64,000 bases of DNA from an uncultured virus (IMG/VR IMGVR_UViG_2857251867_000002). Its lineage: Duplodnaviria > Heunggongvirae > Uroviricota > Caudoviricetes. Below are positions 1,355-47,820 of the stretch, in pieces. The translations under genes and the position numbers were made by a program. Each line of letters starts with the position of its first letter. Positions within the stretch are counted from its first letter, which is position 1. The DNA lies in the IMG/VR virus record IMGVR_UViG_2857251867_000002; one strand, 5' to 3'. Below the pieces are notes generated by a model. That model saw only the letters and a list, made by a program, of their open reading frames with translations. It had not been told where the DNA came from and did no database searches.

Positions 1355-1419
1355 ATTTTTCTCTCCACACTGTCCGTACACAGTTTAAATAGATATTAGT
1401 TGATGCTGGTGGTAATTAT

Positions 1420-1893
1420 TTACTGATTTTCTTTATAGAATGCCATCCAGTGGGTCTTGTCATTTTTCCCTACACGCTGAACAGCTGTTGGTTTTTCATT
1501 AGTTAAAGCTAATATTTGTTTAACGGGTATTTGAGTTTCGCACCACTTAAACAATAAGGTTCCATTTGGCTTTAACACACGAAATGCTTCAGTAAATCCT
1601 TTTTTTAAATCTTCTTTCCATGAGTCTTTATTTAACGAACCATATTTTTTAAACATCCAGCTGTTTTTACCAACTCTAATTAAATGAGGAGGATCAAATA
1701 GCACCTGATAAAATGAATTATCTTGGAAAGGAAGATTTTTAAAATCAGAAATAACATCAGGTGTTATATTTAAAATTCTTCCGTCACATAAAATATGTTC
1801 TTCTACTCTAATATCATTAAATAAAACACGGTCATCTTGTTTATCAAAATAAAACATACGAGAGCCACAACACATATCAAGTATCGGTTTCAC
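1420..1893 (-). CDS. SAM-dependent methyltransferase (probably DNA amino-methyltransferase)
   Basis: ILDMCCGS motif I and FDPPH catalytic-type motif. Confidence 0.8.
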   Translation of the reverse strand: MKPILDMCCGSRMFYFDKQDDRVLFNDIRVEEHILCDGRILNITPDVISDFKNLPFQDNSFYQVLFDPPHLIRVGKNSWMFKKYGSLNKDSWKEDLKKGFTEAFRVLKPNGTLLFKWCETQIPVKQILALTNEKPTAVQRVGKNDKTHWMAFYKENQ

Positions 1894-2098
1894 TCTTAAC
1901 CTCAAATTTAATATTTGAATCTTTATTTATCGATAATCTTAAACACGTCTTGTCATGATAATAAGATAATAGATCCTCTTCTTTTTGTAGATCTATTGAT
2001 GCTTCATTTCCCCAATATCTTAAATACCTAATTCGATACCAGCTATTACCAATTTTAATAACATCATTGGGATTTAATTGGTTTATTGATTTATCCAT
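1877..2098 (-). CDS. Hypothetical phage protein
   Basis: ORF tightly packed in left-arm operon. Confidence 0.6.
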   Translation of the reverse strand: MDKSINQLNPNDVIKIGNSWYRIRYLRYWGNEASIDLQKEEDLLSYYHDKTCLRLSINKDSNIKFEVKSETDT

Positions 2099-2100
2099 TA

Positions 2101-2745
2101 TTAAATCCTTTTAAACTCAATAACCCACACCCACGGATTAGATGACCAACTTCCATCTCCATATATTTCCTCCCATAAAGTAGGGAATTGATCACTAGGG
2201 GTAAGAGCCTTATCGGGAGTTCCACCTCCACGCCCATACCAACAGCCTTCAGATTTTGCATCATCGTTACTGATATCATTCAATCGTTCAACACGAACAT
2301 CAGTAATTTCTAATGTAATGCGTGAAGCCCAGCGAGGCATGTGAATAGATGGAGTCCAGCCAACCAATTCATCACCATCCCAAGATGCGCGATGAATACA
2401 ATATTCTGACTTACGGAAGTGTTCAGGTATCATGCTTAATTGCGAGTCTTTACATCCGTAAAACTCAACATCACCCCAAGTTCCATCGCGAGGTGCATCA
2501 GGCATCCATGTTTCACGAACCCAAAGGTGATCACCAGCTTTACCAAGGGGACATAAATTATATTTTGGAGCATCCAACACATGCGTAGTTGTGCCACTTC
2601 TTGTTTTGGTCGGTTTTTTTAGCCACATTCCATTATCAGGCATTACATTTTTAACGATGCGCCGTGTTTGAGTTTTACGCCCATCTAAAATGGCACGCAC
2701 CATTTCAGAATTAAAAATAATTCCACGCTCTTTCATATCACCCAC
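2101..2745 (-). CDS. Conserved phage protein (ASCH-like N-terminus)
   Basis: MKERGIIFNSEMVRAILDGRKTQTRR and WTPSIHMPRWASRI motifs. Confidence 0.75.
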   Translation of the reverse strand: MGDMKERGIIFNSEMVRAILDGRKTQTRRIVKNVMPDNGMWLKKPTKTRSGTTTHVLDAPKYNLCPLGKAGDHLWVRETWMPDAPRDGTWGDVEFYGCKDSQLSMIPEHFRKSEYCIHRASWDGDELVGWTPSIHMPRWASRITLEITDVRVERLNDISNDDAKSEGCWYGRGGGTPDKALTPSDQFPTLWEEIYGDGSWSSNPWVWVIEFKRI

Positions 2746-3193
2746 CTATGTATGTGGCTGTTCTAATACGCTGGTAGATTTCGTGTGCTTGAATTCTCTC
2801 TTCGCCGATATCGCAAGCACAGAAATATTCATAAGCTGTTTTTTCAGCTTCTCGATGGGCTTTTAAAAACTGTTCTTTTAATTGATATTTTGAAGAGCGT
2901 AACCAAAGGCAGACGGGTCCATCTTCACTTTCGTATATAGATCCAATAAACCAGCCTTCACCAGGAGGTTCCGTTGGCATCCAAGCTGATACATTAGGGT
3001 TACCGTGGGTGAAATAGTTTTGGAAAACAGGTGTATTCTCTCCGACATCTTCACTCATATAAATACAGCGTTGCTCTAATTGGTTATCCGTTACCCACTG
3101 CATAATTTCATTACTATCTTCGGAATATGGCAGTTCTGAATGAGCCCAATAACCATTTTCATCATATTCTACAAATTCTGGAGTAATTGACAT
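2738..3193 (-). CDS. Hypothetical phage protein
   Basis: ORF with GGAGG RBS in left-arm operon. Confidence 0.7.
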   Translation of the reverse strand: MSITPEFVEYDENGYWAHSELPYSEDSNEIMQWVTDNQLEQRCIYMSEDVGENTPVFQNYFTHGNPNVSAWMPTEPPGEGWFIGSIYESEDGPVCLWLRSSKYQLKEQFLKAHREAEKTAYEYFCACDIGEERIQAHEIYQRIRTATYIGG

Positions 3194-3201
3194 AAAGCCT
3201 C

Positions 3202-3699
3202 CTAAATCACATTAATTAAATGGCGTGGATACATAAGCCCAATCGGTGCGAAAGGGATATCATCTTCAAAATCCATTAGTGGCTGATTGTTTTTGACTTG
3301 AGGTTGAGCTGGTGGCTGATTTTGCTGTGCCGGTTGTGAACCTACTGATTTACTAGCACCACCTAGCATTTGCATCGAACCACCAACCTTTACAACAATT
3401 TCTGTTGTATAGCGTTTAACACCGTTATCATCCCATTCGCGGGTTTGTAATTGCCCCTCGATATAAACTTGAGAGCCTTTGCACAAATAGCCACTGGCGA
3501 TATCTGCGAGTTTTCCAAACAGAACGACACGGTGCCATTCTGTCTTTTCTCGGTTTTCACCCGTTTGTTTATCTCGCCACTTTTCTGATGTGGCCACAGC
3601 TAAATTGGCAACAGCACCACCAGAAGGCAGGTAGCGAATTTCAGGATCGCGCCCTAAATTGCCGATAAGAATTACTTTGTTTACTGATCCGTTAGCCAT
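3202..3699 (-). CDS. ssb: Single-stranded DNA-binding protein
   Basis: [16 protein letters not shown]-terminus and DDIPF tail motif. Confidence 0.95.
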
Positions 3700-5025: not shown

Positions 5026-5208
5026 TTCTATAACCTCACGTTATCACTTCACTCTATAAAAATGGCTGACTGAGCAGAACATTATCACCACACCCCCGTT
5101 AATGGTTAAGACTCAGCCAGCCATTGTTTCTCTTCACACGTTCTCTTCACACATAAAAATCATTTACTTTGTATACAAACTTGCTTCTGAGATAACAATA
5201 ATGCAAAT

Positions 5209-7041: not shown

Positions 7042-7500
7042 ATGAGTAACCAATCAATAAAACAGGTAGTGAAAGAAATGTGTGAGGCAACAGCTGGTGG
7101 GCGTGAGGCAATGGCTGGTGCGCTTGGTCTGTCTTTAACATCGTTCAACAACAAGCTTTATGAGAAAAACGGTTGTCGTTCGTTTGATTTAAACGAGCTG
7201 TTAGCAATGCAGGATATCTCTAAAACCGTTTTGTTTGCTGAGTTTGTTGCTCGTGAATCAAATCGCTTGTTGGTGGATAGAGTCAATCCAGCTGAACTAG
7301 ACACAACCGAGTTATTCACATTACGAAGCAATGTTGACGAAATGCAAGGGCGTTTAGCCTTATTGATGAAAGATAGTTTAGCTGATGGCGTTATTGATGG
7401 TGATGAAGAGCAAAAGATAAAAATGATGTTGGATGGATTAATTTCACAGACCCGCACATTTATGAATGCGTTTGTTTCGTTACATCAAAAGAGAAATTAA
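7042..7500 (+). CDS. YmfL-family / CII-like regulator
   Basis: GGREAMAGALG...FNNKLYEKNGCR; paralogue at 43953. Confidence 0.8.
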   Translation: MSNQSIKQVVKEMCEATAGGREAMAGALGLSLTSFNNKLYEKNGCRSFDLNELLAMQDISKTVLFAEFVARESNRLLVDRVNPAELDTTELFTLRSNVDEMQGRLALLMKDSLADGVIDGDEEQKIKMMLDGLISQTRTFMNAFVSLHQKRN

Positions 7501-7588
7501 AGATGGCTATATCCAGAAAGGGTGAAGCCAAAGGTGTACGGCCTCTGGCTTCGGTTTGCAAATTTCAATTGTGTGAAGAGAAATTAGC

Positions 7589-7798
7589 ATGAGTAGATTA
7601 GCGCATTTAATACCTAAAAAGCAATTCCGTTGTTTACCTGTCTCGGGTAGTCAGTCGTTCCGCTATGTAGAAATCATAGCCTCTGACGAACAACCAGACA
7701 ACTACCAACAAAAAACAGATTTGGTAGATAGACAGTCGCTTAAAAAGGCATGGGCTGATTTTTATTTTTCAAGTGGAGAGCGGGGCAATGAGCAATGA
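7589..7798 (+). CDS. Conserved small phage protein
   Basis: Paralogue at 44492 with identical N-terminus. Confidence 0.65.
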   Translation: MSRLAHLIPKKQFRCLPVSGSQSFRYVEIIASDEQPDNYQQKTDLVDRQSLKKAWADFYFSSGERGNEQ

Positions 7799-7967
7799 GA
7801 ACCCAAACCAACTTGATCGCTATTACAAAAATCACAGGGGTATCGTTGTTCATGTTGTCCGTTATGACAGAGAAAAACAGCGAGTTATTTTTATGCTCGA
7901 TGGTTGTGACGATCCGCAATGTGAACCCTTGCAACGATTTAAAGAGAAGTACACACGTATTAAGTAA
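7788..7967 (+). CDS. DUF4222-like phage protein
   Basis: RYYKNHRGIVVHVVRYD...F.EKYTR; paralogue at 44691. Confidence 0.7.
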   Translation: MSNENPNQLDRYYKNHRGIVVHVVRYDREKQRVIFMLDGCDDPQCEPLQRFKEKYTRIK

Positions 7968-7979
7968 TGAGGTGGCAAG

Positions 7980-9074
7980 ATGAGTTTATTATTACTAAAA
8001 AGTCGCCCTTTAGTCGTTATTCCTGAATTAGCGGTACGCCTTGGTTTAAATGAGGCGATGCTGTTACAGCAAATTCAATATTGGCTAACTGAAACTACTT
8101 CAGGTGTTGAATATGACGGCTCACGCTGGATTTATAACACCGTTGAAGAGTGGAAGAATCAATTTCCTTTTTTCTCTGAATCAACGATTAAACGTGCTTT
8201 TACTAATTTAAAAAAGCAGGGCGTTTTACGCATCGAGCAAATCAATAAATCTAACCATGACCGTACTAATTATTATGCGATTAACTACGGTCATCATCTG
8301 CTGACCGATGAGGTCAATATGACCCAATCGAATAGCGATAACTCATCTAATCGAACAGTTCAAAATGACCTTATCGATAAGCGCAAATTGAAACCTTCAA
8401 ACAGTTCAAAATGCGCTGTTCTGAACGGGTCAAAATGGCCTGTTCTTACAGAGAATACAACAGAGATTACTTCAGAGAGTACAACAGAAACAGATCATTC
8501 GTCGCAGAATTCTGGCGAATCCAGCGACCAGCCTAAAAATGATTTTTTAACTCGTTATCCCGAAGCCGTGATTTACAGCGCAAACTTCCAAAAATGGGGT
8601 GATGAAGGTGATTTGAAAACAGCAAAATGGATGTTTGGTCGTGTTAAAAAACTGAATTCATCCGCGCTAGAGCCTACTTGGTATGACTGGGCGAACGATA
8701 TTCGTTTGATGCGCCAAATTGATGGGCGTACTCATGAGCAAATTTGTGCATTATTCGACTGGGCTAACAAAGATTCATTCTGGCACCAAAACATTTTAAG
8801 CCCTCGTAAATTACGTAAACACTTTGATGAGCTGATCGTTCGTAGTCAAAAACCAAAGGATGAGCCAAAGGTTCAAGTTGATACCGTTAAACGTGACAGT
8901 GCATTCTCACGCTTAATTGGTTCTCGTTCTAAACCTCAAAACCGTATTGAAGAAATTGCGCTTGAACTAGCAGGTAAGACAGGTATTCGCCGTATGAGTG
9001 AGTTTTCTGGTCGCCAAGCATGGAACAGTATTTGGAAACAAGCGACTGAAATGTCACAGGAGGCTCAGCAATGA
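7980..9074 (+). CDS. Replication initiator (O-like)
   Basis: Phage rep N-terminus, internal iterons, WANDIRLMR...FWHQNILSP C-domain. Confidence 0.85.
   Translation: MSLLLLKSRPLVVIPELAVRLGLNEAMLLQQIQYWLTETTSGVEYDGSRWIYNTVEEWKNQFPFFSESTIKRAFTNLKKQGVLRIEQINKSNHDRTNYYAINYGHHLLTDEVNMTQSNSDNSSNRTVQNDLIDKRKLKPSNSSKCAVLNGSKWPVLTENTTEITSESTTETDHSSQNSGESSDQPKNDFLTRYPEAVIYSANFQKWGDEGDLKTAKWMFGRVKKLNSSALEPTWYDWANDIRLMRQIDGRTHEQICALFDWANKDSFWHQNILSPRKLRKHFDELIVRSQKPKDEPKVQVDTVKRDSAFSRLIGSRSKPQNRIEEIALELAGKTGIRRMSEFSGRQAWNSIWKQATEMSQEAQQ
8311..8446 (+). repeat. Putative replication origin iterons
   Basis: About five (GG/AG)TCAAAATG-like repeats inside the rep gene. Confidence 0.6.
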
Positions 9075-9709
9075 TTGATTACGCACTGAAATTACAGGAA
9101 TTAAAAAGTCAACCTGCTCATAAATTAAAAGAAATTGGTGACCAATGGCGATCACCAGATAACCTTTACTATGGCATTAACTCTAAATATGGACCATTTA
9201 CTTTAGATTTATTCACTGATGGTCAAAACAGTAAATGCCCACACTTCTACACAGCGGAAGATAATGCGCTCACTCAAGACTGGTCAGAAAAGCTGAAAGA
9301 AATCGGCGGTTCAGCATTTGGCAACCCTCCTTACTCACGTAGTTCATATCACGAAGATCAACCTTTAACAGGGGTTGGTCACATCATGAGTAAAGCATCA
9401 GCTATGCGTGAAAAATCCGGACGATATGTTTTTTTATTAAAAGCAGCTACGTCAGAAACATGGTGGCCAGAAGATGCAGATCATGTGTGCTTTATTCGTG
9501 GGCGTGTCGGCTTTGACGTTCCTGAGTGGTTTGTTCCAGCCGATGAAAAACAGAAACCTACAGGTGCATTCTTTGCTGGCGCGATCGTTTTATTTGATAA
9601 GACATGGACGGGTAAAAAATTCGATTACATTCATCGTGATGAATTAGAGCAAATCGGTAAAACATTTGTTGAACAGGCTAAATGGCTTGTATCGAGAGGT
9701 GTTGCATGA
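9071..9709 (+). CDS. Phage N6-adenine DNA methyltransferase
   Basis: DQWRSP, FTLDLF and GNPPYS motifs. Confidence 0.9.
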   Translation: MIDYALKLQELKSQPAHKLKEIGDQWRSPDNLYYGINSKYGPFTLDLFTDGQNSKCPHFYTAEDNALTQDWSEKLKEIGGSAFGNPPYSRSSYHEDQPLTGVGHIMSKASAMREKSGRYVFLLKAATSETWWPEDADHVCFIRGRVGFDVPEWFVPADEKQKPTGAFFAGAIVLFDKTWTGKKFDYIHRDELEQIGKTFVEQAKWLVSRGVA

Positions 9710-10098
9710 AAATCACAGAGCAAATCTTAGCGTTGTACAAAGTGGGTGAAGAAGTTAATCGCGACATTGTTATTCGTGATTTAGACACTAATTTAGCTGG
9801 CGCATCAAGAGCGTTGGCACACCTTTGGACTTTAGGTGCATTAGTCAGAATTAGCGAAGAACGTCCATTACGCTACAGAGTAACTAAAGAGGCAGAAAGA
9901 GTTTATTCAGTAATAACAGAATCACGTAAATCAGATGAGTCAGTCTACATTGAAAAGCTGAATACTCAGAAGGCTAAAAAATGCGCTTTGCCCACAATTA
10001 AATGGGTAAAACACGCCACCTCTAATTTTGCTCTCATGGGTAAATTACCAACCGAGCCGTATGACTCATTAGTGAGAGCTGTAAGAGGTAATCACTAA
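9706..10098 (+). CDS. Hypothetical (winged-helix-like) protein
   Basis: ATGA overlap with upstream gene. Confidence 0.6.
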   Translation: MKITEQILALYKVGEEVNRDIVIRDLDTNLAGASRALAHLWTLGALVRISEERPLRYRVTKEAERVYSVITESRKSDESVYIEKLNTQKAKKCALPTIKWVKHATSNFALMGKLPTEPYDSLVRAVRGNH

Positions 10099-10268
10099 TG
10101 AACAATAAAAGCTGTCCATTCTGTAACTCTAAAAAACTAGAAGTCATGCAAGTGATGATCAATACATTCACTCGCTGTCAGAAATGTGGAGCAAGAGGCC
10201 CTATTGCTAATAATGCGGATGAAGCTATGAAGGCTTGGGATAAAAGGAGTGTAAACGATGCTAACTAA
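10098..10268 (+). CDS. Lar-family restriction-alleviation-like zinc protein (not in ORF track)
   Basis: 56 aa MNNKSCPFCNS...RCQKCGARGP...EAMKAWDKR; two CxxC pairs. Confidence 0.75.
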   Translation: MNNKSCPFCNSKKLEVMQVMINTFTRCQKCGARGPIANNADEAMKAWDKRSVNDAN

Positions 10269-10338
10269 ATACATGTTGTTCGTTGGTTTTTGGTTCGTTG
10301 TGACATTACTGATTGGGTTGCGGGGTACTTATGCCTGA
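10258..10338 (+). CDS. 26 aa hydrophobic peptide
   Basis: MLTKYMLFVGFWFVVTLLIGLRGTYA with AGGAG RBS; overlaps both neighbours. Confidence 0.45.
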   Translation: MLTKYMLFVGFWFVVTLLIGLRGTYA

Positions 10339-10717
10339 ATTAACCCTAACACTACCATTTACACCTAGCGTGAACACCTATTGGCGAAACACAAAGAGAG
10401 GAACCTTAGTCAGTGCCAAAGGGCGGGTCTTTAGATCAAATGCTATTGCATCAGTCTATAAACAATTAAAGCGTAGACCTAAAGCCATTGAGAGTGATGT
10501 GGTTGTTTCAGTGAAATTATATCCACCAACTAAGCAGGCTAGAGATATTGATAATTTCTTAAAGGCACCTTTTGATGCGCTTACTCATGCGGGTGTATGG
10601 GTGGATGATAAACAGATTAAAAAAATGGATGTTGAATGGATGGACGTTATTAAAGGCGGGAAGCTTGAAATAACCATTCGTCAGCATAGTAAAAGCGTGA
10701 TGTACGGTCACGAGTAA
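10331..10717 (+). CDS. rusA: RusA-family Holliday junction resolvase
   Basis: PSVNTYWR, RDIDNFLK and DDKQI motifs. Confidence 0.9.
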   Translation: MPELTLTLPFTPSVNTYWRNTKRGTLVSAKGRVFRSNAIASVYKQLKRRPKAIESDVVVSVKLYPPTKQARDIDNFLKAPFDALTHAGVWVDDKQIKKMDVEWMDVIKGGKLEITIRQHSKSVMYGHE

Positions 10718-10735
10718 AACGTGGAGAGAAATAGC

Positions 10736-11443
10736 ATGATGCAAAGAACAATGGAAGTTTCAGTATTACCCGCAATGAATCGCGAATTAACCATGTCGAG
10801 CAGAGAGATTGCTAGTTTAACTGGCAGTAATCACTCAGATGTTAAGCGTTCTGCAGACAGGCTTTTTATTGCTCAAATTTTAACCCAGCCATTGGCTGAG
10901 TTCCCTTTTGAGCATAATGGCAATCAATATACTGAATACCGTTTTAATAAAAGAGACTCACTAGTGCTGGTGGCTCGATTATCACCTCAGTTCACAGCGA
11001 AAATTGTCGATCGCTGGCAGGAATTAGAGTCAAAAATGCAACCTATCATTCCTCAAACGTTACCAGAGGCATTGCGATTAGCTGCAGACTTAGCAGAAGA
11101 AAAACAAAAGCTGGAAAGTGAATTAGCGATTGCCACACCTAAGGCTCAGTTTGTTGATAATTATGTTTTATCCACGGGTTCTATGACGTTTCGCCAAGTG
11201 TGCAAATTACTGCAGGTGAAAGAAACGGATTTTCGCTGTTTTTTAATAGATAAGAAAATAATGTATCGCTTGAATAATACATTTACGCCTTATCAAACCC
11301 ACGTCGATCTTGGTCGCTTTGAGATAAAAACGGGCACTAATCAAACCAATAACCATGCATTTGCACAATCACGGTTTACCGCTAAAGGCGTGAAGTGGAT
11401 CGCAGGGTTATGGGCTGAATATAAAGTAGGGGATATCATTTAA
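10736..11443 (+). CDS. Rha/KilAC-type antirepressor
   Basis: TMSSREIA Rha-like N-terminus; PQTLPEALRLAADL...FTAKGVKWI C-terminus. Confidence 0.85.
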   Translation: MMQRTMEVSVLPAMNRELTMSSREIASLTGSNHSDVKRSADRLFIAQILTQPLAEFPFEHNGNQYTEYRFNKRDSLVLVARLSPQFTAKIVDRWQELESKMQPIIPQTLPEALRLAADLAEEKQKLESELAIATPKAQFVDNYVLSTGSMTFRQVCKLLQVKETDFRCFLIDKKIMYRLNNTFTPYQTHVDLGRFEIKTGTNQTNNHAFAQSRFTAKGVKWIAGLWAEYKVGDII

Positions 11444-12468: not shown

Positions 12469-12495
12469 CGTGTGTACGGCACGAGTGGAGGAAAT

Positions 12496-13167
12496 ATGCC
12501 AATTTACGCGCATGACTTGGAATATTTAAGTGATATGGCATCGATAGCTACATCAAACTTAAGAGCTTCAACAAAAGGTCAGTTAGAAGCATTTGAAGAT
12601 TTTGGGTTAACAGACACGAGAACAACACCGAGAGTTAGAATGCGAGATTTAAAATTAAACGGCCGTTTTGTTTGTCGTGATACTGATCCAATCTATGTAT
12701 TAGAAACTCGCTGTCGTCGAACTCCAAAGCCGATGATAGAGCCTGTGGATTTTTTATTATGCTCATGGCGTAGGGCTATTAATGCATTAAGTGAAGAACA
12801 ACACTCATGGATAATGTATTGTTATGGATATAGTTTGAAATTTGAGCATCAAGTGAATATCAGTGTTCATGTATGGTCTGAATTTGAAAAACAGCATAAC
12901 GGTAAAAAGATAACTAAAAAGGTTAAAGAACGACTAAGATCATTAGTCTGGTTATCGGTTCAGACTTGCACTGGGCGTAATTATTCACAAACAGATCTGG
13001 CTCGCTTGGTGGGTGTTAAGCGTAATAATTGGAAAATGAATTATGATATATATTGGAATAGCCTTTTAGATATTTGTTGTGAGTTAGATAAGTCGGCATT
13101 ACTTTCTATGAAGCGAGTTAGAATCGAGTTGGTTAATAAAAATAATCACGACAACTTGCAAAAATGA
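12496..13167 (+). CDS. Q: Late antiterminator Q
   Basis: Position before PR' and lysis; SWRRAI..L motif and C-terminal HTH. Confidence 0.75.
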   Translation: MPIYAHDLEYLSDMASIATSNLRASTKGQLEAFEDFGLTDTRTTPRVRMRDLKLNGRFVCRDTDPIYVLETRCRRTPKPMIEPVDFLLCSWRRAINALSEEQHSWIMYCYGYSLKFEHQVNISVHVWSEFEKQHNGKKITKKVKERLRSLVWLSVQTCTGRNYSQTDLARLVGVKRNNWKMNYDIYWNSLLDICCELDKSALLSMKRVRIELVNKNNHDNLQK

Positions 13168-41738: not shown

Positions 41739-41964
41739 CTGTAATTATCCTCTTAAGTCGTTCCGTTGATTTAGTAGGAGTTTGGGGGAGAGATAGATAA
41801 CCCACATAACGAGCTTCTCTATCAACCATCCACTTGCGGCCAACTTTCATTGCGGGTGGTGCAATAAGGTTATTCTTTGCGTATTTTTGTAATACCGTCA
41901 TGCAAGGAGAGGCATCTCCAAATTCCAACCTTGCCCACGCTTCAAGAGTCACCATTCTTGACAT
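41713..41964 (-). CDS. xis: Excisionase
   Basis: MVTLEAWA...PPAMKVGRKWMV; overlaps int. Confidence 0.85.
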   Translation of the reverse strand: MSRMVTLEAWARLEFGDASPCMTVLQKYAKNNLIAPPAMKVGRKWMVDREARYVGYLSLPQTPTKSTERLKRIITDGCPTTNP

Positions 41965-42049
41965 ATTTTCTCTCCATACTGCCGTATACAGTTTAAATAG
42001 ACGTTAATTATGCTGGTGGTATTTATTTAAACTTTTTAGAACTGTTTAT

Positions 42050-42574
42050 TTAGCTCCTTTTACTTAATTCATTAAATCTACGTAAAAATAAAACTTTGGC
42101 TTGTAGTGGGGTTAATGGATTAACAATAAAATCACTCGTAGGAATACCTTCAAGCATTAGCCAATTACTACCCACATCAATTTCTAAATCTCGTTTTTCG
42201 GTTGCTAACATCATTAAGTCGGCTAAATGAACGGCGTTCGATATAACGGGTGGCAAGTTATATTTTTGACGAATAACAGCATCAATGCTTTTTTCTATCT
42301 CCTTATATTCAGGTAATAGCTTTTTAAGCGGTGATGGCAGATCTTTTACATAGGCCTCACTGGCATCATGAAGTAAGGCTTCTAAAGCATATTCAGGAGC
42401 AACTAAATAGCTGACATATACCGAGTGTTGAGCAACAGAATAGAAATTATCAATCTGCCCATTAAAGCGACATTCATTAGCTAAACCCGTCGCAATGTCT
42501 TGAATATCTATATCCTCGATCCGTACATCGAGGTAATAGAAGTGCTTATTCGTTGCAGTTGCAATATAAGACAT
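42050..42574 (-). CDS. HD-domain phosphohydrolase (YfdR/YfbR-like)
   Basis: YSVAQHS and ALLHDASEAY motifs. Confidence 0.88.
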   Translation of the reverse strand: MSYIATATNKHFYYLDVRIEDIDIQDIATGLANECRFNGQIDNFYSVAQHSVYVSYLVAPEYALEALLHDASEAYVKDLPSPLKKLLPEYKEIEKSIDAVIRQKYNLPPVISNAVHLADLMMLATEKRDLEIDVGSNWLMLEGIPTSDFIVNPLTPLQAKVLFLRRFNELSKRS

Positions 42575-42825
42575 TATTCTCTCCACATAATTTAAGTAAT
42601 AAAGATCCATCTCGAATTAATCGAGATTAAATTTCCCTGATATTGGTTAATGGTAAATTCAAATAAAGACTTATTTTTTATGTTTCAATTATTGAACTTG
42701 ATTATTGCTTACCTCAAGTTGTGGCGGTTTCTACTGTTTCCCAACAGACAGAAACTATTTCTCTTCACATGAAAATTTTTATTAAGGTGTTTTCACACAC
42801 ATAATTGAATTAGATATTAATCATA

Positions 42826-42908
42826 ATGTAACTCATCCTACACCGCACATTTAAAATGTAGGATAACCAACATTGGTGTGTCAAGTGTTTTTGTAGGAAA
42901 TCTTACAT
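42826..42908. promoter_or_regulatory. OL operators of prophage 2 (ATGTAGG-N4-CCTACAT)
   Basis: Three 18-bp imperfect palindromes at 42826, 42856 and 42891. Confidence 0.75.
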
Positions 42909-42969
42909 AGATATGTGATGGTAATAAAAAATCCTCCGAAGAGGATCCTTTTATCAATGAGATAGGAAA

Positions 42970-43617
42970 TTATGGTAAATGAGCTATTTTGGCATCCACA
43001 ACAACACCCACAATTTTACAATTTCCATTGATTGGTATTAAGCGGTATTGAGGGTTTAATGGTTTTAAGTAATGGTTGCCTGCATCCACAATGTACTGCT
43101 TAAATGTAACTTCATTTTCAGATTCTAATTTAGCGACAACTAGCTTGCCACTAACAACCTCTACTGCGGGATCTACTAATATAATCATCCCTTCAGGAAT
43201 ACTTAGTCCAGAAGGAGAGGTCATAGAATCTCCTTTTACTTCTAGCCAAAATGATTCTTCGGAACAATGCACAGTTGTCTCATACCATGTATCGATTGAT
43301 TTTCTATGATATGGCTCTACGGCCTCAGACCAATTCCCAGCGCTTACCCAGCTAATTAAAGGGTATTCACCACTAGATCTATTAAATTTTAAAAACGAAA
43401 CATTAGAAATAGGATCTTCTTTTCCATCAACAAGCCAAATAGGGCTTGTTTCAAGAGCACTCGCTAATGCTTGAAGATTAGCGCCATTGGGTTGATAGTC
43501 ACCTTTTTCCCAACCAGTAACAGTCACACGATTGACTCCAGCTTTTTTAGCTAGAGCCTGCTGTGTCATTTTCAGCTCAAGGCGTCTTTGTTTAATTCGT
43601 TCGCTCATTTCTTTCAT
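42970..43617 (-). CDS. cI: CI-like repressor (P22 c2-like)
   Basis: HTH; YPLISWVSAG and VKGDSM; start moved to MKEMSER. Confidence 0.92.
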   Translation of the reverse strand: MKEMSERIKQRRLELKMTQQALAKKAGVNRVTVTGWEKGDYQPNGANLQALASALETSPIWLVDGKEDPISNVSFLKFNRSSGEYPLISWVSAGNWSEAVEPYHRKSIDTWYETTVHCSEESFWLEVKGDSMTSPSGLSIPEGMIILVDPAVEVVSGKLVVAKLESENEVTFKQYIVDAGNHYLKPLNPQYRLIPINGNCKIVGVVVDAKIAHLP

Positions 43618-43681
43618 GTAGGAAAGCCTACCACATTCCAAATGTAAGAATCTTGACATTTAAATGTAAGATATCCTACAT
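43616..43681. promoter_or_regulatory. OR operators and PR of prophage 2
   Basis: Three 18-mers at 43616, 43642 and 43664; TTGACA at 43653. Confidence 0.75.
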
Positions 43682-43720
43682 TATATGCGTGTGAATTATT
43701 CACTTACCAAAGGATTACAA

Positions 43721-43915
43721 ATGAAGAAAAAAGATGTAATCACGTTTTTTGGTGGTACGTGTAAAACAGCAAAAGCCCTCGGTATTAAACATCCTTCGGT
43801 GTGTGGTTGGGGATATATCATTCCTAAAGTAAGGGCGTATGAAATAGAAAAAATCACCAAGGGAAAACTTAAATATAACCCTGAACTTTATAGAAAAAAT
43901 ACCAAAACAGCATAA
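43721..43915 (+). CDS. cro: Cro
   Basis: MKKKDVITFFGG..KTAKALGI...IP..RAYEIE.IT.GKLK. Confidence 0.88.
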   Translation: MKKKDVITFFGGTCKTAKALGIKHPSVCGWGYIIPKVRAYEIEKITKGKLKYNPELYRKNTKTA

Positions 43916-43952
43916 GGCAATTAACTACCAATAAAAGATAGAGCAGGTAGAT

Positions 43953-44429
43953 ATGAGCAAACATTCAATTAAAGAAGTTATTAAAGAAATGTGCAAAGCA
44001 CTGCCGGGTGGACGTTCTGCTATGGCAGGGGCTCTAGGTATGTCACTCGAGACGTTTAATAACAAGTTATACGAAAAAAATGGCTGTCGTTTCTTTGATA
44101 TTGATGAACAAGAAGCCATGGAAGATATTTCGGGCACTAAGTTGCTGGTGGAATATCACCTAGAACGTCATGGCATGAGTGCATTACCAAAAATAGAAGC
44201 AGAAAAGATAGATCAAGTAGAGCTATTTGATATGCGAATGACATTGGCTGCTATGCAAGGATCACTCGCCGTTTTAATTCAAGAAAGCCTTGTTGATGGT
44301 GTTTTAACGGATGAAGAAATAGGGCGTATTTATCGAAAAACAGGGAAAGTTTTTGCGTATGCAATTGGGTTCTTGGATTCACTGAAAGTGTTATACGGTG
44401 AAAAACAGGAAGCGACTAAGAAAGGGTGA
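43953..44429 (+). CDS. YmfL-family / CII-like regulator
   Basis: Paralogue of 7042. Confidence 0.8.
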   Translation: MSKHSIKEVIKEMCKALPGGRSAMAGALGMSLETFNNKLYEKNGCRFFDIDEQEAMEDISGTKLLVEYHLERHGMSALPKIEAEKIDQVELFDMRMTLAAMQGSLAVLIQESLVDGVLTDEEIGRIYRKTGKVFAYAIGFLDSLKVLYGEKQEATKKG

Positions 44430-44491
44430 AGCCAAAGGTATACGGCCTCTGGCTTCGGTTGCCAATTTCAATGATGTGAAGAGAAATAAGC

Positions 44492-44701
44492 ATGAGTAGA
44501 TTAGCGCATCTAATACCTAAAAAGCAATTTCGCTGTTTACCCTTAACTAAAGAGGGAACATTTCGCTATGTAGAAAGCATACCGAGTGACAATCGATCAC
44601 ACAACTACCGAAAAAATATCGATTTGGTAGATAAGAGGACACTGAAAAAGTCATGGGCTGATTTCTATTTCTTGAGTGGAGGAAAATGCAATGCGAAATG
44701 A
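44492..44701 (+). CDS. Conserved small phage protein
   Basis: Paralogue of 7589. Confidence 0.65.
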   Translation: MSRLAHLIPKKQFRCLPLTKEGTFRYVESIPSDNRSHNYRKNIDLVDKRTLKKSWADFYFLSGGKCNAK

Positions 44702-44878: not shown

Positions 44879-45943
44879 ATGAGTGTTAAATTATCTAGTT
44901 ATGTTTGGGATGGTTGCGCCCATGCAGGTTTAAAACTCACATCAGTCGCTATCATGGCAAGATTAGCTGATTTTTCTAATGATGAAGGCATTTGTTGGCC
45001 TTCTGTTGTGACAATTGCTCGTCAAATTGGTGCGGGTGAAAGCACGGTGCGCACAGCAATAAAACAGTTGGAAAAAGAAGGGTGGTTAACCAGCGAAAAG
45101 CGTAGAAAAGGCAATCGCAACGCAAGCAATATCTATCAGCTGAATGTAGAGAAACTATACCAATCAGCAAAGAAAGCACTTTCTCAACCAATAAAATCTG
45201 ACGCGTCAAAATCTGATGCATCAGGAGTTGACCCATCAAAATTTGTTGCATCAAATTCTGTTCCCTCAAAATCGAGCAAAAATAGGGATTTTGACCCGCC
45301 AGCTCCTGAGGGCGATCCATCAGTAACTTCAAAATATGATCCATCAATAAATCATTCTTCGTCGCAGAATTCTGGCGAATCCAGCGACCAGCCCAAAAAT
45401 GATTTTTTAACTCGTTATCCTGAAGCTGTGATTTACAGCGCCAACTTTCAAAAATGGGGCTCCGCTGACGATTTGAAGTGCGCTAAATGGTTATTCAGCC
45501 GTAAATGCGAAGTGTTTCAAGAGATGGGATTAAAAACGCCTAAAGAGCCAAATTTCACTGATTGGGCTAATGATATTCGCTTAATGGCAACGATTGATGG
45601 GCATACTCACAAAGAAATTTGTCAGTTCTATAAACGAATTACGCAAGATGATTTTTGGAAAAAGAATGTTCAGTGTCCTCGTACACTTAGGGCTCAATGG
45701 GATGATTTAACCTTACGTTTGGCGGGTAAGAAAAAAATCACCATCGACTCCGTAGAGCGTGATGAAACATTCCGGCTTATCTGGGGTACGGGTTGGAAAC
45801 CTAAAAATAAAATCCAAGAATTAGCCGCTATTCAGGCAAAGAAAAATGGTCTAGGCCGAATGAATGAGGTTGCAGGTTTAGCTGCGTGGCGAGGTATTTG
45901 GCAACAAGTTGCAGAACAAGTTGCTCAGGAAGTTTTGCTATAA
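44879..45943 (+). CDS. Replication initiator with N-terminal HTH
   Basis: ARLADFSNDEG.CWPSV HTH; internal iterons. Confidence 0.85.
   Translation: MSVKLSSYVWDGCAHAGLKLTSVAIMARLADFSNDEGICWPSVVTIARQIGAGESTVRTAIKQLEKEGWLTSEKRRKGNRNASNIYQLNVEKLYQSAKKALSQPIKSDASKSDASGVDPSKFVASNSVPSKSSKNRDFDPPAPEGDPSVTSKYDPSINHSSSQNSGESSDQPKNDFLTRYPEAVIYSANFQKWGSADDLKCAKWLFSRKCEVFQEMGLKTPKEPNFTDWANDIRLMATIDGHTHKEICQFYKRITQDDFWKKNVQCPRTLRAQWDDLTLRLAGKKKITIDSVERDETFRLIWGTGWKPKNKIQELAAIQAKKNGLGRMNEVAGLAAWRGIWQQVAEQVAQEVLL
45193..45346 (+). repeat. Putative origin iterons (15-bp period TCAAAATCTGA-like)
   Basis: Tandem imperfect repeats inside rep. Confidence 0.65.
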
Positions 45944-45964
45944 ACGAGAGTGGAGAAAAATAAC

Positions 45965-46771
45965 ATGAATGGACTAATTGTTATTGATGGTGTTCAAATT
46001 CGTCGAGATACCGCAGGGCGTTATTGTTTAAATGACCTTCATCGAGTCTCAGGTGGTGAAAAACGGCATCAACCTTCGAATTGGAGTGCTTTAACCCAAA
46101 CTAAAGAATTGATTGATGAAATTTCAACCGCTCCTGAGATCACAGGAGCGGTTCCCATTATGACCATTGTTGGTGGGCTTAACCAAGGAACGTATGTTTG
46201 CAAAGAATTAGTGTATGCCTATGCAATGTGGATAAGCCCATCATTTCATTTAAAAGTGATCCGTACTTTTGATGCATTGATAACACAGCAACACGACGAA
46301 AAGTTAGCCGATAAAGTTCAAGCTGGGGTTATATTGCTTGAATCGATGGCTAAGAGCCTAAATTTCTCAAACTCTTCAAAATTAGGGGCGTATCAAAAAT
46401 TACAAGCCATGGCAGGCTTACCCGAATTAGCCCCTGTGTATGCGATTGATGCGCCAAGTGGATCAATGGATGGTTCAAGTCGTCCAACAGTAGCTTTATC
46501 AACACTGATTAGAAAACACCAATTACCTGTTTCAGCGCAACAAGCTTATAAGCGGTTGGCTGATCTCAGTATTGTTGAACGTTTATCTCGTCCAAGTACG
46601 AAAACTGCCAACAAAATGAAAGAGTTCTGGTCAGTGACTGCCCGAGGCTGTCAGTTTGGGAAGAACATGACCAGCCCTAATAATCCTCGTGAAACCCAAC
46701 CCCATTTCTTTGAAAGTAAAACGGATGAATTGATCCGTATGGTGATGCTGAATAAGCAGGTGAGTGCATGA
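45965..46771 (+). CDS. KilA-N domain protein (antirepressor-like)
   Basis: GRYCLNDLH...GTYVCKELVYAYAMWISP. Confidence 0.88.
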   Translation: MNGLIVIDGVQIRRDTAGRYCLNDLHRVSGGEKRHQPSNWSALTQTKELIDEISTAPEITGAVPIMTIVGGLNQGTYVCKELVYAYAMWISPSFHLKVIRTFDALITQQHDEKLADKVQAGVILLESMAKSLNFSNSSKLGAYQKLQAMAGLPELAPVYAIDAPSGSMDGSSRPTVALSTLIRKHQLPVSAQQAYKRLADLSIVERLSRPSTKTANKMKEFWSVTARGCQFGKNMTSPNNPRETQPHFFESKTDELIRMVMLNKQVSA

Positions 46772-47793
46772 AATTATTGTTAACACCCTATATTCAGTCC
46801 GATCTTGGTGTTGTTTTATTGAAGCCTGAAGCGGAGTTGTTTGAGCAACTTAAACAACATTCTCGTGTGATTATTAGTGATGTACCAAAGAGTTTAAATA
46901 AATGGCCTTCTGGTGAATTAACAGGGAACGAACAGCCATTATTGAATAACAAGAGCATTGTTGATTTTTTGAATAATGAAAAAGTGATCCAAGCTATGGG
47001 CGGGCTGGTATCGATGAATATGTGGATAGGCAGGAATATCCATTGCTGCCAGATTAACGATAAGCATGACAGTTATCATCATCATGAATTAACAACCACA
47101 TGGCATAAAGACGGTGTGATACGAACCTGTTGGTACCATGATAATCATATTCGTAATTCATCGGCGGGGTGGGTTGCTGAGTTAGCGTATAAAAATCGTA
47201 TTGCTTGGATGATAGATACTATTCGCAGTCGTTTGAGATTAGATGATAGCCATTCGCTGACGATACCTGACTTTTTTGCTTTTGCCGTGATGCATAAACT
47301 GGTTAATGAATTACCTGATGCTATATTACGTCGTATTCTAAATTGGTCTGATAAACCTAAAGATCGTAGAGTGCATGGCGGTTTTCCTGAAGCTGATATT
47401 GTTCCCAATGAAGTAACAGCACTATCAGCAATGAATGCGCGTTTAGATGCCATAAAACCCGTTATTAATGTGACTGTCGATCCTGAACCTCCAGCCTCAT
47501 TTCTTCTTAAACCTAAAATGTGCCGTTGGGAGAATTCTCAATGGCTTCAATGGGTAAAAACACAGCCTTGTTGTGTTTGCGGACAACAAGCTGATGATCC
47601 GCATCATATTATCGGACATGGTATGGGAGGCATGGGAACGAAAGCTCATGATTTATTCACTATTCCATTATGTCGGCAACATCATGATGAGTTGCATCGT
47701 GATCCGAAATTGTGGGAAGCCAATTATGGTAACCAAATCGAATTGTTATTTTCTTTTTTAAACCGTTCATTAGGAATGGGGGCATTGGTTTAA
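46768..47793 (+). CDS. DUF968-family protein
   Basis: Paralogue of 11443. Confidence 0.85.
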   Translation: MKLLLTPYIQSDLGVVLLKPEAELFEQLKQHSRVIISDVPKSLNKWPSGELTGNEQPLLNNKSIVDFLNNEKVIQAMGGLVSMNMWIGRNIHCCQINDKHDSYHHHELTTTWHKDGVIRTCWYHDNHIRNSSAGWVAELAYKNRIAWMIDTIRSRLRLDDSHSLTIPDFFAFAVMHKLVNELPDAILRRILNWSDKPKDRRVHGGFPEADIVPNEVTALSAMNARLDAIKPVINVTVDPEPPASFLLKPKMCRWENSQWLQWVKTQPCCVCGQQADDPHHIIGHGMGGMGTKAHDLFTIPLCRQHHDELHRDPKLWEANYGNQIELLFSFLNRSLGMGALV

Positions 47794-47820
47794 CGTGTAT
47801 ACGGCACGGGGAGTATTAGT

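What the first reader, a model, noticed from the sequence alone, without database searches (positions are those of the whole stretch)
1355..47820. Recurring hairpin with conserved T(G/A)TACGG loop before key decision genes of both prophages
Seen: seven hairpins whose stems differ but stay complementary around the same loop. They are ACTGT-GTACGG-ACAGT (1369-1384, minus) and ACTG-TATACGG-CAGT (41978-41992, minus), both before xis; GAAGCCAAAGG-TRTACGG-CCTCTGGCTTC (7524-7552 and 44428-44456), after the cII-like gene; CGTGA-TGTACGG-TCACG (10696-10712), before the antirepressor; and CGTG-TRTACGG-CACG (12469-12483 and 47794-47808), before two unrelated Q genes. All are in the sense orientation of their operon. 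Most are followed by GTG(G/A)AGAG or a close variant at the next RBS, and GTGAAGAGA also occurs in both left-operon leaders (5129-5152 twice, 42760). No N-like gene is recognisable in either phage. Inference: a phage-wide cis RNA element, either a protein-bound translational or antitermination switch or a target of a C4/CI-type antisense RNA, that co-regulates excision, antirepression and late transcription and could allow cross-talk between the two prophages.
Basis: partly seen in the sequence, partly recalled or inferred. Interest (0 to 1): 0.78.

Follow-up and report, generated by a model that had tools for sequence, protein, structure and literature searches.

The report
Hairpin address tags for phage antisense RNA
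The recurring hairpins are real and most likely mark the messages for excision, antirepressor and late-gene activator as targets of one small antisense RNA that each prophage encodes just after its cII gene, an RNA-based lock on the lysis-lysogeny decision.

Summary
The window has 13 TRTACGG. Eight are loops of short complementary stems, all sense to their operon (0.27 such hairpins expected). I add an eighth site, 42515-42535(-), and a possible ninth inside a tail gene.

Stems covary while the loop stays fixed, within Proteus phages and in Morganella and Providencia phages.

The new point concerns the two hairpins after cII. Read on the minus strand, they look like the terminator of a ~73-nt sar-like antisense RNA: A 7588->7516, B 44491->44420. 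Support comes from reciprocal sub-threshold matches to P22 sar and a promoter at the same position. In addition, 99.2% of cells pair on the antisense strand, and 13% of cells are G.U pairs that would be A.C on the sense strand.

The RNA's terminator loop, CCGUAYA, complements every URUACGG loop. Its 5' loop, UCUCUUCAC, complements GUGRAGAGA, found 8 times against 0.57 expected, always at early-gene ribosome sites or pL leaders.

Four diverged homologues in other genera carry other loops (UAUGCGG, GUGCAG, UUGCAG). Their prophages repeat that same loop and their own ribosome-site motif before xis, Q and other genes.

Best reading (0.6): a trans-acting, two-site antisense regulator. No transcript has been shown. 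This is a new variant of a known kind.

The parts
7516..7588 (-). Predicted sar-like antisense sRNA of prophage A (~73 nt). It has a 5' hairpin whose 13-14 nt loop holds the anti-SD UCUCUUCAC, and an 11-bp terminator hairpin (7524-7552) with loop CCGUACA.
   Evidence: Rfam sar RF00262 matches full length at 18.2 bits, below the gathering score of 43. Model R1 scores 99.7 bits here (by construction) and also finds annotated P22 sar. Fold. Covariation.
7595..7624 (-). Inferred promoter of sRNA A: -35 TTGCTT (7619-7624), an 18-nt spacer, -10 TAATCT (7595-7600). It lies inside the first codons (MSRL...) of the small gene 7589-7798.
   Evidence: It sits at the same place relative to the start codon as the annotated Psar -10 TATACT of P22. 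TAATCT and TTGC are invariant in Proteus, Morganella and Providencia while the spacer diverges. The same geometry appears in 4 other genera. The simple consensus scan did not call it.
7573..7581 (+). Cis target: GTGAAGAGA at the ribosome site of small gene 7589-7798 (phrog_26022), fully complementary to sRNA A.
44420..44491 (-). Predicted sar-like antisense sRNA of prophage B. The terminator hairpin is 44428-44456 with loop CCGUAUA, and it overlaps the cII stop codon.
   Evidence: Rfam sar matches full length at 23.8 bits (E 0.0071 in 181 nt, 0.11 in 2.8 kb). The terminator-like call is on the minus strand. R1 scores 95.3 bits.
44498..44527 (-). Inferred promoter of sRNA B: -10 TAATCT at 44498-44503 and -35 TTGCTT at 44522-44527.
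44476..44484 (+). Cis target GTGAAGAGA at the ribosome site of small gene 44492-44701.
1352..1384 (-). xis-A target. Hairpin ACTGT-GTACGG-ACAGT (1369-1384), then GTGGAGAGA (1360-1368), then ATG at 1354.
   Evidence: A 13-nt run GTGTGGAGAGAAA is complementary to the sRNA 5' region when G.U is allowed.
5056..5153 (-). pL leader of prophage A. It has two tandem GTGTGAAGAGAA copies (5127-5153) complementary to the sRNA 5' loop, a 3-codon mini-ORF (ATG GCT GGC TGA, 5124-5113) and a 15-bp terminator-like hairpin (5125-5061) followed by a U run.
   Evidence: Fold: -32.5 kcal/mol, z -2.51.
10696..10741 (+). Antirepressor target. Hairpin CGTGA-TGTACGG-TCACG (10696-10712, overlapping the rusA stop), GTGGAGAGAAATAGCATG (10721-10738), ATG at 10736/10739.
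   Evidence: It is the best trans mRNA in the cofold ranking, after the pL-A leader. Complementary run of 12-14 nt.
12469..12498 (+). Q-A target. Hairpin CGTG-TGTACGG-CACG directly after the TAA of the DUF968 gene, then AGTGGAGGAAAT and ATG at 12496.
   Evidence: Complementarity to the anti-SD is weak here (run of 7, within background).
41962..41992 (-). xis-B target. Hairpin ACTG-TATACGG-CAGT (41978-41992), ATGGAGAGA (41969-41977), ATG at 41964.
42515..42586 (-). HD-phosphohydrolase target of prophage B, with the order reversed. GTGGAGAGA (42578-42586) comes first, then ATG at 42574, then hairpin CCTCGAT-GTACGG-ATCGAGG (42515-42535) inside the coding sequence.
   Evidence: The hairpin forms in the MFE fold. 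The outer pair covaries C-G/T-A at synonymous sites.
42755..42770 (-). pL leader of prophage B. ATGTGAAGAGAAATAG has 16 nt of perfect complementarity to sRNA B.
47794..47823 (+). Q-B target. Hairpin CGTG-TATACGG-CACG directly after the TAA of the DUF968 gene, then GGGAG and ATG at 47821.
   Evidence: Only the loop is complementary; the anti-SD match is at background level.

Best explanation
Each prophage encodes a ~73-nt antisense RNA opposite the gap between its cII-like gene and the next small gene (A: 7588->7516; B: 44491->44420).

It is built like P22 sar. Its promoter lies inside the first codons of the downstream gene. A 5' hairpin displays an anti-Shine-Dalgarno sequence (UCUCUUCAC) in its loop, and a terminator hairpin follows. 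The terminator's 7-nt loop, CCGUAYA, is the exact complement of the URUACGG loops.

The short hairpins before xis, the antirepressor and Q, and inside the HD gene, are therefore address tags. The sRNA terminator loop kisses the mRNA loop. The sRNA 5' loop pairs with the nearby GUGRAGAGA ribosome site. Translation is blocked, and the pL leaders, which carry 12-16 nt matches, are bound as well.

The expected net effect is to hold down excision, antirepression and late transcription. The lock would work in trans on any co-resident or incoming phage that carries the same tags.

What the sequence shows: the hairpins, their covariation, the two complementarities, their lineage-specific co-variation, and the stronger pairing of the cis element on the antisense strand.

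What is inferred: that the RNA is made, that pairing occurs, and that the effect is repression.
For: (1) The hairpins are real. There are 9 stemmed TRTACGG sites in the window against 0.27 expected. In about 200 related loci, 402 of 902 loop occurrences carry stems of at least 4 bp, in 35 distinct stem variants.

(2) At the four homologous positions, Morganella phage IME1369_02 and Providencia phage PSTRCR_117lys keep the loop but use quite different stems. Examples are GCGCAG/CTGCGC against CGTGA/TCACG, ATCG/CGAT against ACTG/CAGT, and GCGCT/AGCGC against CGTG/CACG.

(3) An antisense RNA gene is supported in several ways. Rfam sar matches full length at 23.8 and 18.2 bits. My model R1 finds annotated P22 sar at its annotated coordinates, at 22 bits and E 0.0034 in 68 kb. 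The layout matches P22, and our invariant TAATCT lies where P22's -10 TATACT lies. Across 36 variants, 99.2% of 648 cells pair (shuffled 82.1%, 0 of 500 reach it) and 10 of 18 pairs change on both sides. Of those cells, 85 are G.U, which would be A.C on the sense strand.

(4) Strand test. Read on the sense strand, the cis hairpin has 15 A.C against 2 G.U. The trans hairpins have 11 G.U against 6 A.C.

(5) Second complementarity. GTGRAGAGA occurs 8 times against 0.57 expected, and all 8 are at early ribosome sites or pL leaders. Matches extend to 16 nt in pL-B and to 17-18 nt at two left-operon genes of the Morganella phage.

(6) Lineage-specific co-variation. R1 homologues in four other genera have terminator loops whose sense forms are TATGCGG, TGTGCAG (twice) and TTGCAG. 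Their prophages carry hairpins with that same loop, and their own ribosome-site motif, before xis, Q and other genes. In a cross table, stemmed loops make up 28/132 occurrences for a phage's own allele, 7/269 for other alleles and 21/332 for reversed controls.

(7) One lineage has cis loop TGCACGG with trans loops TGTACGG. For RNA pairing, that is an A-U to G.U change.
Against: No transcript has been shown. The one RNA-seq attempt said nothing: contigs carry no strand, and the two raw-read strains lack the region.

Both Rfam matches are below the gathering score.

The promoter hexamers are weak, and the simple consensus scan did not call them. The terminator U-tract is poor; in A it did not pass the scan.

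A cofold ranking over 236 ORF starts, which cannot model kissing, put only the pL-A leader and ant just behind the cis sites. Q-B ranked 9. xis-A, Q-A and xis-B were within background.

The two Q sites have only background anti-SD complementarity. The G.U-tolerant run measure has a heavy background; several unrelated 13-14 nt runs appear.

The predicted asymmetry at loop position 2 failed. Eight distinct loci have cis G (C in the sRNA) together with a target A.

Because the cis site carries the same loop on its sense strand, any reader of sense loops would also explain why loops match within a phage.

The 4-bp hairpins are weak on their own, and at the ant site the MFE fold prefers an alternative hairpin.
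Confidence: 0.6

Rival explanations
1. The loops are read on the sense strand by a phage protein. The leading candidate is the 69-aa product of the gene just downstream of the cis hairpin (7589-7798 / 44492-44701, phrog_26022, no Pfam family). It would act as a translational repressor that also regulates itself. The sar-like RNA would then act only in cis on that gene.
For: All sites, the cis one included, present the same loop on the sense strand just upstream of a ribosome site. The small gene is conserved next to the cis hairpin in every lineage seen. A loop that stays fixed while stems vary is the classic signature of a protein operator (recalled examples: MS2/PP7 coat protein, lambda N-boxB).
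Against: The cis hairpin pairs worse on the sense strand (15 A.C against 2 G.U). Its stem length (11 bp) and its 24-nt distance to the ribosome site differ from all other sites. Islands of 13-18 nt identical to the cis ribosome-site region, lineage-specific and with unrelated flanks, are far more than a small protein would read. Spacing of 0-24 nt and the reversed order of motif and hairpin (HD gene, pL leaders of L365/L366) suit two independent RNA contacts better than one protein footprint. The protein has no recognisable RNA-binding family.
Confidence: 0.17
2. The hairpins are boxB-like parts of nut sites for an unrecognised N-type factor, or a put-like RNA that acts on RNA polymerase. Either would let transcription run through terminators into xis, ant and Q.
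For: The form is a short stem with a fixed loop, like boxB. A TTTAA/TCTATT stretch upstream of several sites loosely recalls boxA (boxA recalled, not tested). These phages have terminator-like hairpins in their leaders.
Against: PHROGs and Pfam found no N-like gene in either prophage. The left operon of prophage B holds only an HD hydrolase, xis and int. There are 3-4 sites per phage, and apart from the HD-gene hairpin (inside coding sequence) each sits within 0-24 nt of a ribosome site rather than near a promoter. The sites are tied to a ribosome-site motif that co-varies with the antisense RNA. Rfam gave no put or related hit.
Confidence: 0.04
3. No specific reader exists. The hairpin plus ribosome-site module would be a passive intercistronic element for mRNA stability, insulation of translation starts or ribosome standby. 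It would have spread as a linker at mosaic junctions, and its complementarity to the antisense RNA would be a by-product.
For: Sites lie exactly at module boundaries. The same hairpin is joined to different upstream or downstream genes, for example two unrelated Q genes and two different genes before the ant hairpin. Apart from the HD-gene hairpin (inside coding sequence), sites start at or within 36 nt after a stop codon.
Against: Copying by recombination would carry the stems along, yet within one phage the stems differ and only the loop is shared. A passive hairpin needs no fixed loop. It also would not switch all its loops together to another sequence in other lineages.
Confidence: 0.1
4. 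A host RNA-binding protein or RNase of these bacteria reads the loop.
For: The same loop is shared by phages of three host genera. TRTACGG is under-represented in the nearest host genome: 302 in 4.0 Mb against 751 for the reversed control. Avoidance of a recognised signal could produce that.
Against: The loop alleles track the phage's own antisense RNA gene. Two genera share GTGCAG, and three share RUACGG. The ribosome-site motif co-varies too, which a host loop reader would not require.
Confidence: 0.07

Closest known systems
sar RNA of Salmonella phage P22 (Rfam RF00262)
   Same: Same layout: the upstream gene's stop, a terminator hairpin, the ribosome site and ATG of the downstream gene, and the promoter inside the first ~35 nt of that gene with transcription starting right after the complement of the ATG. 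The length is about 70 nt. The first hairpin carries an anti-SD UUUCUC in its loop. The flank and stem ACCGAAGCC...GGCUUCA are shared. Sub-threshold matches run both ways.
   Different: Scores are below Rfam's gathering score. The RNA lies after cII in the early right operon, where lambda and P22 have oop, not between arc and ant in immI. The downstream gene encodes a 69-aa protein, not Ant. In the part of P22 that I read (13000-41724), the sense form of the sar terminator loop (CGGTAA) does not recur in hairpins before regulatory genes. sar is described as pairing with ant mRNA only (review PMC12197685, passages seen).
oop RNA of lambda and P22
   Same: It is an antisense RNA immediately downstream of cII, with its terminator at the cII 3' end and its promoter in the start of the next ORF (P22 annotation).
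   Different: Model R1 finds no similarity to the P22 oop region. oop overlaps the cII coding end, whereas here the overlap is 0 nt (A) to a few nt (B). The RNA covers the ribosome site of the downstream gene instead. Lambda oop itself was not compared.
c4 RNA of phages P1/P7 and CI RNA of P4 (recalled; c4 is also in review PMC12197685)
   Same: A small phage RNA with two short recognition segments pairs with matching segments in front of an antirepressor operon. Allele-specific sequences define heteroimmunity.
   Different: There is no Rfam match to C4 families. The RNA here is not processed from the operon it controls. The targets are four or more separate ribosome sites in both early operons, and each has its own hairpin tag.
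OxyS-fhlA two-site kissing complex (recalled, not tested)
   Same: Two loops of one sRNA contact two separate sites of a target, one at the ribosome site and one in a hairpin loop. This includes a site inside the coding region, as at the HD gene here.
   Different: OxyS is a host stress sRNA with one such target. Here a phage sRNA appears to have a family of tagged targets.
lambda N-boxB nut sites
   Same: A short stem with a fixed loop, repeated in both early operons.
   Different: No N gene was found. The sites are at ribosome sites rather than near promoters, and the loop co-varies with an antisense RNA gene.

Membership tests
Rfam RF00262 sar | Score at or above the curated gathering score (43 bits) | tested here: not met
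   23.8 bits at 44491->44424 and 18.2 bits at 7589->7520. Both matches are full length, model positions 1-68. Nothing appeared at the gathering threshold.
Rfam RF00262 sar | Antisense to the ribosome site of the downstream gene, with the promoter inside that gene's first codons and a terminator at the upstream gene's end | tested here: met
   The geometry is identical to the annotated P22 sar, Psar and terminator (against 40, 74). The promoter is inferred from sequence only.
Rfam RF00262 sar | Two hairpins, with the anti-SD in the first loop | tested here: met
   Folds. The consensus structure has 99.2% of cells paired and 10 of 18 pairs covary.
Rfam RF00262 sar | Location in an immI region between arc and ant | tested here: not met
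   It lies between a cII-like gene (Pfam Phage_CP76) and a 69-aa ORF.
Rfam RF00262 sar | A ~69-nt transcript is made and represses the downstream gene | not testable with these tools
   RNA-seq contigs carry no strand, and the raw-read strains lack the region.
oop RNA | Antisense RNA downstream of cII with its terminator at the cII 3' end | tested here: met
   The position matches the P22 oop annotation. The B terminator overlaps the cII stop codon.
oop RNA | Sequence or structure similarity to a known oop | tested here: not met
   R1 with filters off finds nothing at the P22 oop locus. Lambda oop was not tested.
C4 / c4-a1b1 antisense RNA (P1/P7) | Match to the Rfam C4 families | tested here: not met
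   No such hit at gathering over the window, nor at E<=10 over 7400-12600 and 41800-44600.
nut site (boxA-boxB with N) | An N-type antiterminator gene as the first gene of pL | tested here: not met
   PHROGs and Pfam give no N-like hit. The pL operon of prophage B holds only the HD hydrolase, xis and int. A very divergent N cannot be excluded.
nut site (boxA-boxB with N) | Promoter-proximal position, upstream of terminators, one per early operon | tested here: not met
   There are 3-4 sites per phage; apart from the HD-gene hairpin (inside coding sequence), each lies 0-24 nt before a ribosome site.

The most novel reading that the evidence does not exclude
These lambdoid prophages run an RNA address-code immunity.

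One constitutive sar-like sRNA would recognise a lineage-specific pair of tags, a kissing loop plus a ribosome-site motif, placed on every decision gene: xis, antirepressor, Q and the first pL gene. It would also recognise the pL leader. In prophage A, that leader carries the tag as the ribosome site of a 3-codon mini-ORF buried in a terminator stem. The sRNA would then also decide whether pL transcription terminates.

Loop alleles (RUACGG, AUGCGG, GUGCAG, UUGCAG) would define RNA immunity groups. Within a group, co-resident prophages such as the two here would be locked and released together, and incoming phages of the same group would be blocked.
Probability: 0.3. Interest if true: 0.85.

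Novelty: new variant of a known kind. Interest (0 to 1): 0.72.

Why it matters
Antisense control in temperate phages is known as one RNA acting on one neighbouring gene (sar-ant, oop-cII, aQ-Q), or on one operon (c4, CI). Here a single small RNA appears to reach excision, antirepression and late-gene activation at once, through short hairpin tags whose sequence changes in step with the RNA between phage lineages.

If true, three things follow:
- It would explain how phages without a recognisable N or extra repressors keep Xis, Ant and Q silent.
- It predicts RNA-defined immunity groups and coupled behaviour of tandem prophages.
- It gives a compact, fully testable system of 7-nt and 9-nt codes open to compensatory mutation.

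It also shows that a sub-threshold Rfam family member can sit at a different genomic position with a wider job.

Tried and rejected
(1) Own genome. It is not held, so I used the nearest genome G001 and provirus G002.

(3) RNA-seq. X1 and X3 are unstranded contigs and cover the whole stretch. The raw-read runs X21 and X24 have zero depth over 42181-44450, so their strains lack the region. This says nothing about the sRNA.

(4) duplexfold scan of the window. The first run timed out. The smaller run gave noisy energies; the ant site reached z of about -3, at rank 13. I did not use it as evidence.

(5) cofold ddG ranking. This gave partial support only, as described in the Against line.

(6) Asymmetry test at loop position 2. 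No violation appeared in 61 loci under a strict classifier. With G.U stems allowed, 8 distinct loci out of 151 contexts violate it. I rejected this as evidence.

(7) Order-wide search for the exact CGTG-type hairpin. It was found in 20 of 401 genomes: five copies in G001 and one or two copies in each of the other 19, which is near the level of the reversed control. The exact stems are therefore confined to Proteus-type phages.

(8) Co-occurrence test with the pattern TACGG..GTGGAGAGA in viral contigs. The pattern was too loose, giving mostly chance hits. Of 124 new loci, 26 hairpin hits remained. Every family hairpin with enough flank had the cis module, so there was no counterexample, but this is a weak test.

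(9) P22 check for trans hairpins with the sar loop complement. None was found before regulatory genes in positions 13000-41724. The first 13 kb were not read.

(10) Literature (search listings only). In review PMC12197685 I saw passages only, and 'kissing', 'excision' and 'Proteus' each occur 0 times. I found no description of this network. Subscription-journal papers are not in the library.

Full report
**Setting.** The window holds two lambdoid prophages in tandem. Prophage A runs from 1 to about 39.3 kb. Prophage B runs from 40605 to the window's end. Each has int, xis, a CI-type repressor, cro, a cII-like gene (Pfam Phage_CP76), an O-like replication gene, a DUF968 gene, Q, and lysis genes. 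G+C is about 39%. The nearest phage record is the Proteus phage Pm34, so the host is probably Proteus. The window's own genome is not held.

**The observation.** The heptamer TRTACGG is not itself rare: 13 matches against 7.5 expected. What stands out is that most copies are flanked by complementary arms. Nine of the 13 qualify under a relaxed rule, against 0.27 expected (maximum 3 in 300 simulations).

- Eight are convincing, and all are sense to their operon.
It lies about 40 nt inside the HD-phosphohydrolase gene, the first gene of the pL operon of prophage B.
- A ninth, inside a tail gene (about 33935-33955), may be chance.
- Three pairs of sites are homologous between the two prophages, so there are five independent positions.
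- In the nearest host genome the heptamer is depleted: 302 copies in 4.0 Mb against 751 for the reversed control.

**The hairpin is a selected structure.**

- In 83 related Proteus-phage loci, 161 of 275 loop copies have contiguous stems of at least 4 bp, and 58 more are of the cII type with one mismatch.
- In the larger set, 402 of 902 copies have stems, in 35 distinct stem versions.
- Morganella phage IME1369_02 and Providencia phage PSTRCR_117lys have the same loop at the same four positions (before xis, before the antirepressor-like gene, between the DUF968/YdfU gene and Q, and after cII). Their stems are entirely different.
- The loop is fixed and the stems are free but complementary. Something therefore reads the loop.

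**What sits after cII.** On the minus strand, the long hairpin after cII looks like a terminator. Rfam's sar model (the antisense RNA of P22) aligns full length to 44491->44424 at 23.8 bits and to 7589->7520 at 18.2 bits. Both are below the gathering score of 43.

The annotated P22 record shows the same layout as here: the stop of the upstream gene, the terminator, the ribosome site and ATG of the downstream gene. The sar promoter lies inside the first codons, and transcription starts right after the complement of the ATG. Three further points support an RNA gene:

- *Promoter.* Where P22 has its -10 TATACT, these phages have an invariant TAATCT (the AGA TTA codons of MSRL...). An invariant TTGC lies 18 nt upstream. 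Everything between diverges across three genera.
- *Structure.* I collected 36 distinct versions of the 75-nt unit. Their consensus is a 7-bp 5' hairpin with a 13-14 nt loop, plus the 11-bp terminator. Of 648 cells, 99.2% pair (82.1% after shuffling, 0 of 500 reach it), and 10 of 18 pairs change on both sides.
- *Reciprocal match.* A covariance model of these 36 versions finds the annotated P22 sar at its own coordinates, at 22 bits and E 0.0034. It finds nothing at P22's oop.

So this is a sar-like RNA sitting where lambda and P22 have oop.

**Which strand works.** Eighty-five of the 648 paired cells are G.U. On the sense strand these would be A.C mismatches. Counting non-Watson-Crick pairs directly gives the same picture. 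Read on the sense strand, the cII-type hairpin has 15 A.C against 2 G.U in 29 variants. The other hairpins have 11 G.U against 6 A.C in 65 variants, which include a few likely chance hairpins. The cis element therefore folds best as antisense RNA and the others as sense mRNA.

**Two complementarities.**

- *Loop to loop.* The terminator loop of the predicted RNA is CCGUAYA, the complement of URUACGG.
- *Anti-SD to ribosome site.* The 5' loop holds UCUCUUCAC, the complement of GUGRAGAGA (G.U at R=G). GTGRAGAGA occurs 8 times in the window against 0.57 expected, reached by 0 of 100 shuffles. All 8 are in early regions and all are sense. They are the ribosome sites of xis-A, ant, the HD gene and the two cis genes, plus three copies in the two pL leaders.
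- *Longer matches.* These reach 16 nt in the pL leader of B, 12-14 nt at ant and 13 nt at xis-A. Two left-operon genes of the Morganella phage have 17-18 nt.
- *Weak spot.* The two Q sites have the loop but only background anti-SD complementarity.

**Co-variation between lineages.** Model R1 found homologues in 6 of 151 genomes, one genome per genus of the family, in 5 of 150 genera. The four diverged homologues keep the promoter geometry and a homologous small downstream gene. Their terminator loops differ.

In each, the surrounding prophage carries hairpins with that lineage's own loop, next to that lineage's own ribosome-site motif:

| Lineage | Loop (sense) | Ribosome-site motif | Where seen |
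|---|---|---|---|
| G414 | TATGCGG | GTGTGAGRG | before xis, before Q, one more site |
| G516 | GTGCAG | GTGGAGRAA | several sites |
| G470 | GTGCAG | GTGGAGAR | several sites, including before an xis-like gene |
| G503 | TTGCAG | GTGGAGAAA | several sites |

In a cross table of eight phages by four loop alleles, stemmed loops make up 28/132 occurrences for the phage's own allele, 7/269 for other alleles and 21/332 for reversed controls.

In two of these phages a left-operon site has 13-16 nt identical to the cis ribosome-site region, followed directly by a hairpin with the GTGCAG loop (G516) or with TTGCAG, one letter off its cis loop (G470). One Proteus lineage has cis loop TGCACGG with trans loops TGTACGG, which for RNA pairing is only A-U to G.U.

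**Mechanism.** The best reading is a trans-acting antisense RNA that binds each tagged message at two points: loop-loop kissing, and anti-SD to ribosome site. It would block translation, as sar does for ant. That account of sar comes from review PMC12197685, of which I saw passages only. Because both prophages share both tags, each RNA should act on the other prophage too. The direction of the effect and the conditions of expression are inferred.

**Evidence against.**

- No transcript has been shown.
- The Rfam scores are sub-threshold.
- The promoter and the terminator U-tract are weak.
- A cofold ranking that cannot model kissing singled out only the pL-A leader and ant.
- The predicted asymmetry at loop position 2 fails in 8 loci.
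- The 4-bp hairpins are marginal on their own, and at ant the MFE fold prefers an alternative hairpin.
- Any reader of sense-strand loops, above all the small protein encoded next to the cis site, would also explain why loops agree within a phage.

I weigh that rival at 0.17. The reasons for ranking it lower are the sense-strand mismatches of the cis hairpin, the 13-18 nt identity islands, and the variable spacing and order of the two motifs. All three fit two RNA contacts better than one protein footprint. Nut-type antitermination has little support. No N was found, and apart from the HD-gene hairpin (inside coding sequence) the sites are at ribosome sites.

**Comparison and novelty.** The unit works like sar, sits like oop, and resembles c4/CI in using short allele-specific segments. 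Its two-site geometry recalls OxyS-fhlA (recalled, not tested). It fails Rfam's score test for sar and is not in immI, so I call it sar-like rather than a member of that family.

I found no description of a sar- or oop-type RNA with tagged targets at xis, ant and Q. Five searches gave listings only, and I read passages of one review. Subscription-journal literature is not covered. In P22 itself, within positions 13000-41724, the sar loop complement does not recur before regulatory genes.

**Verdict.** The RNA gene has now been located, and the system is a new variant of a known kind. Interest is 0.72.

Noticed in passing
window 5056-5153 (-): The pL leader of prophage A has two tandem GTGTGAAGAGAA copies and a 3-codon mini-ORF (ATG GCT GGC TGA) whose codons form the 5' arm of a 15-bp terminator-like hairpin followed by UUUUU. 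It looks like a leader-peptide attenuator whose ribosome site is complementary to the sRNA.
   Followed up: partly
window 42569-42636 (+): Model R1 gives a weak hit (15.2 bits, E 0.15) antisense to the ribosome site of the HD gene. It includes the palindromic hairpin 42609-42627. This may be a second, degenerate sar-like unit, or chance.
   Followed up: no
window 48388-48814 (+): A full-length Rfam cspA thermoregulator (228.6 bits) spans 48388-48814 and encloses the cold-shock protein gene (48560-48772) in the accessory region of prophage B. An Hsp20 gene (49104-49562) and a kinase/ATPase-like gene lie next to it.
   Followed up: no
window 10696-10729 (+): At the antirepressor site, the 3' arm of the tag hairpin (TCACG) can instead pair with the CGTG of CGTGGAGAGA. 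This gives two mutually exclusive hairpins, and the MFE fold takes the second. It could be a switch.
   Followed up: no
window ~33935-33955 (+): A ninth hairpin, with loop ATACGG and a 7-bp stem that includes G.U pairs, lies inside the large tail gene 33152-37075. It may be chance, given 0.27 expected per window.
   Followed up: no
window 12469-12483 and 47794-47808; L001-L083: The tag hairpins lie exactly at mosaic junctions. The same DUF968 gene end and hairpin are joined to unrelated Q genes, and the ant hairpin follows two different upstream genes in related phages.
   Followed up: partly
window 1420-1385 and 42049-41993 (-): A ~35-nt stretch upstream of the xis hairpin (..TTACCACCAGCAT..TCTATTTAA) is conserved between the two prophages, although the upstream genes differ (a methyltransferase against an HD hydrolase). 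Its function is unknown; it could be a promoter or part of the target.
   Followed up: no
G001 (nearest genome): G001 holds 4 copies of the sRNA unit on three contigs at 89-100 bits, so several prophages of this regulatory group can share one host.
   Followed up: no
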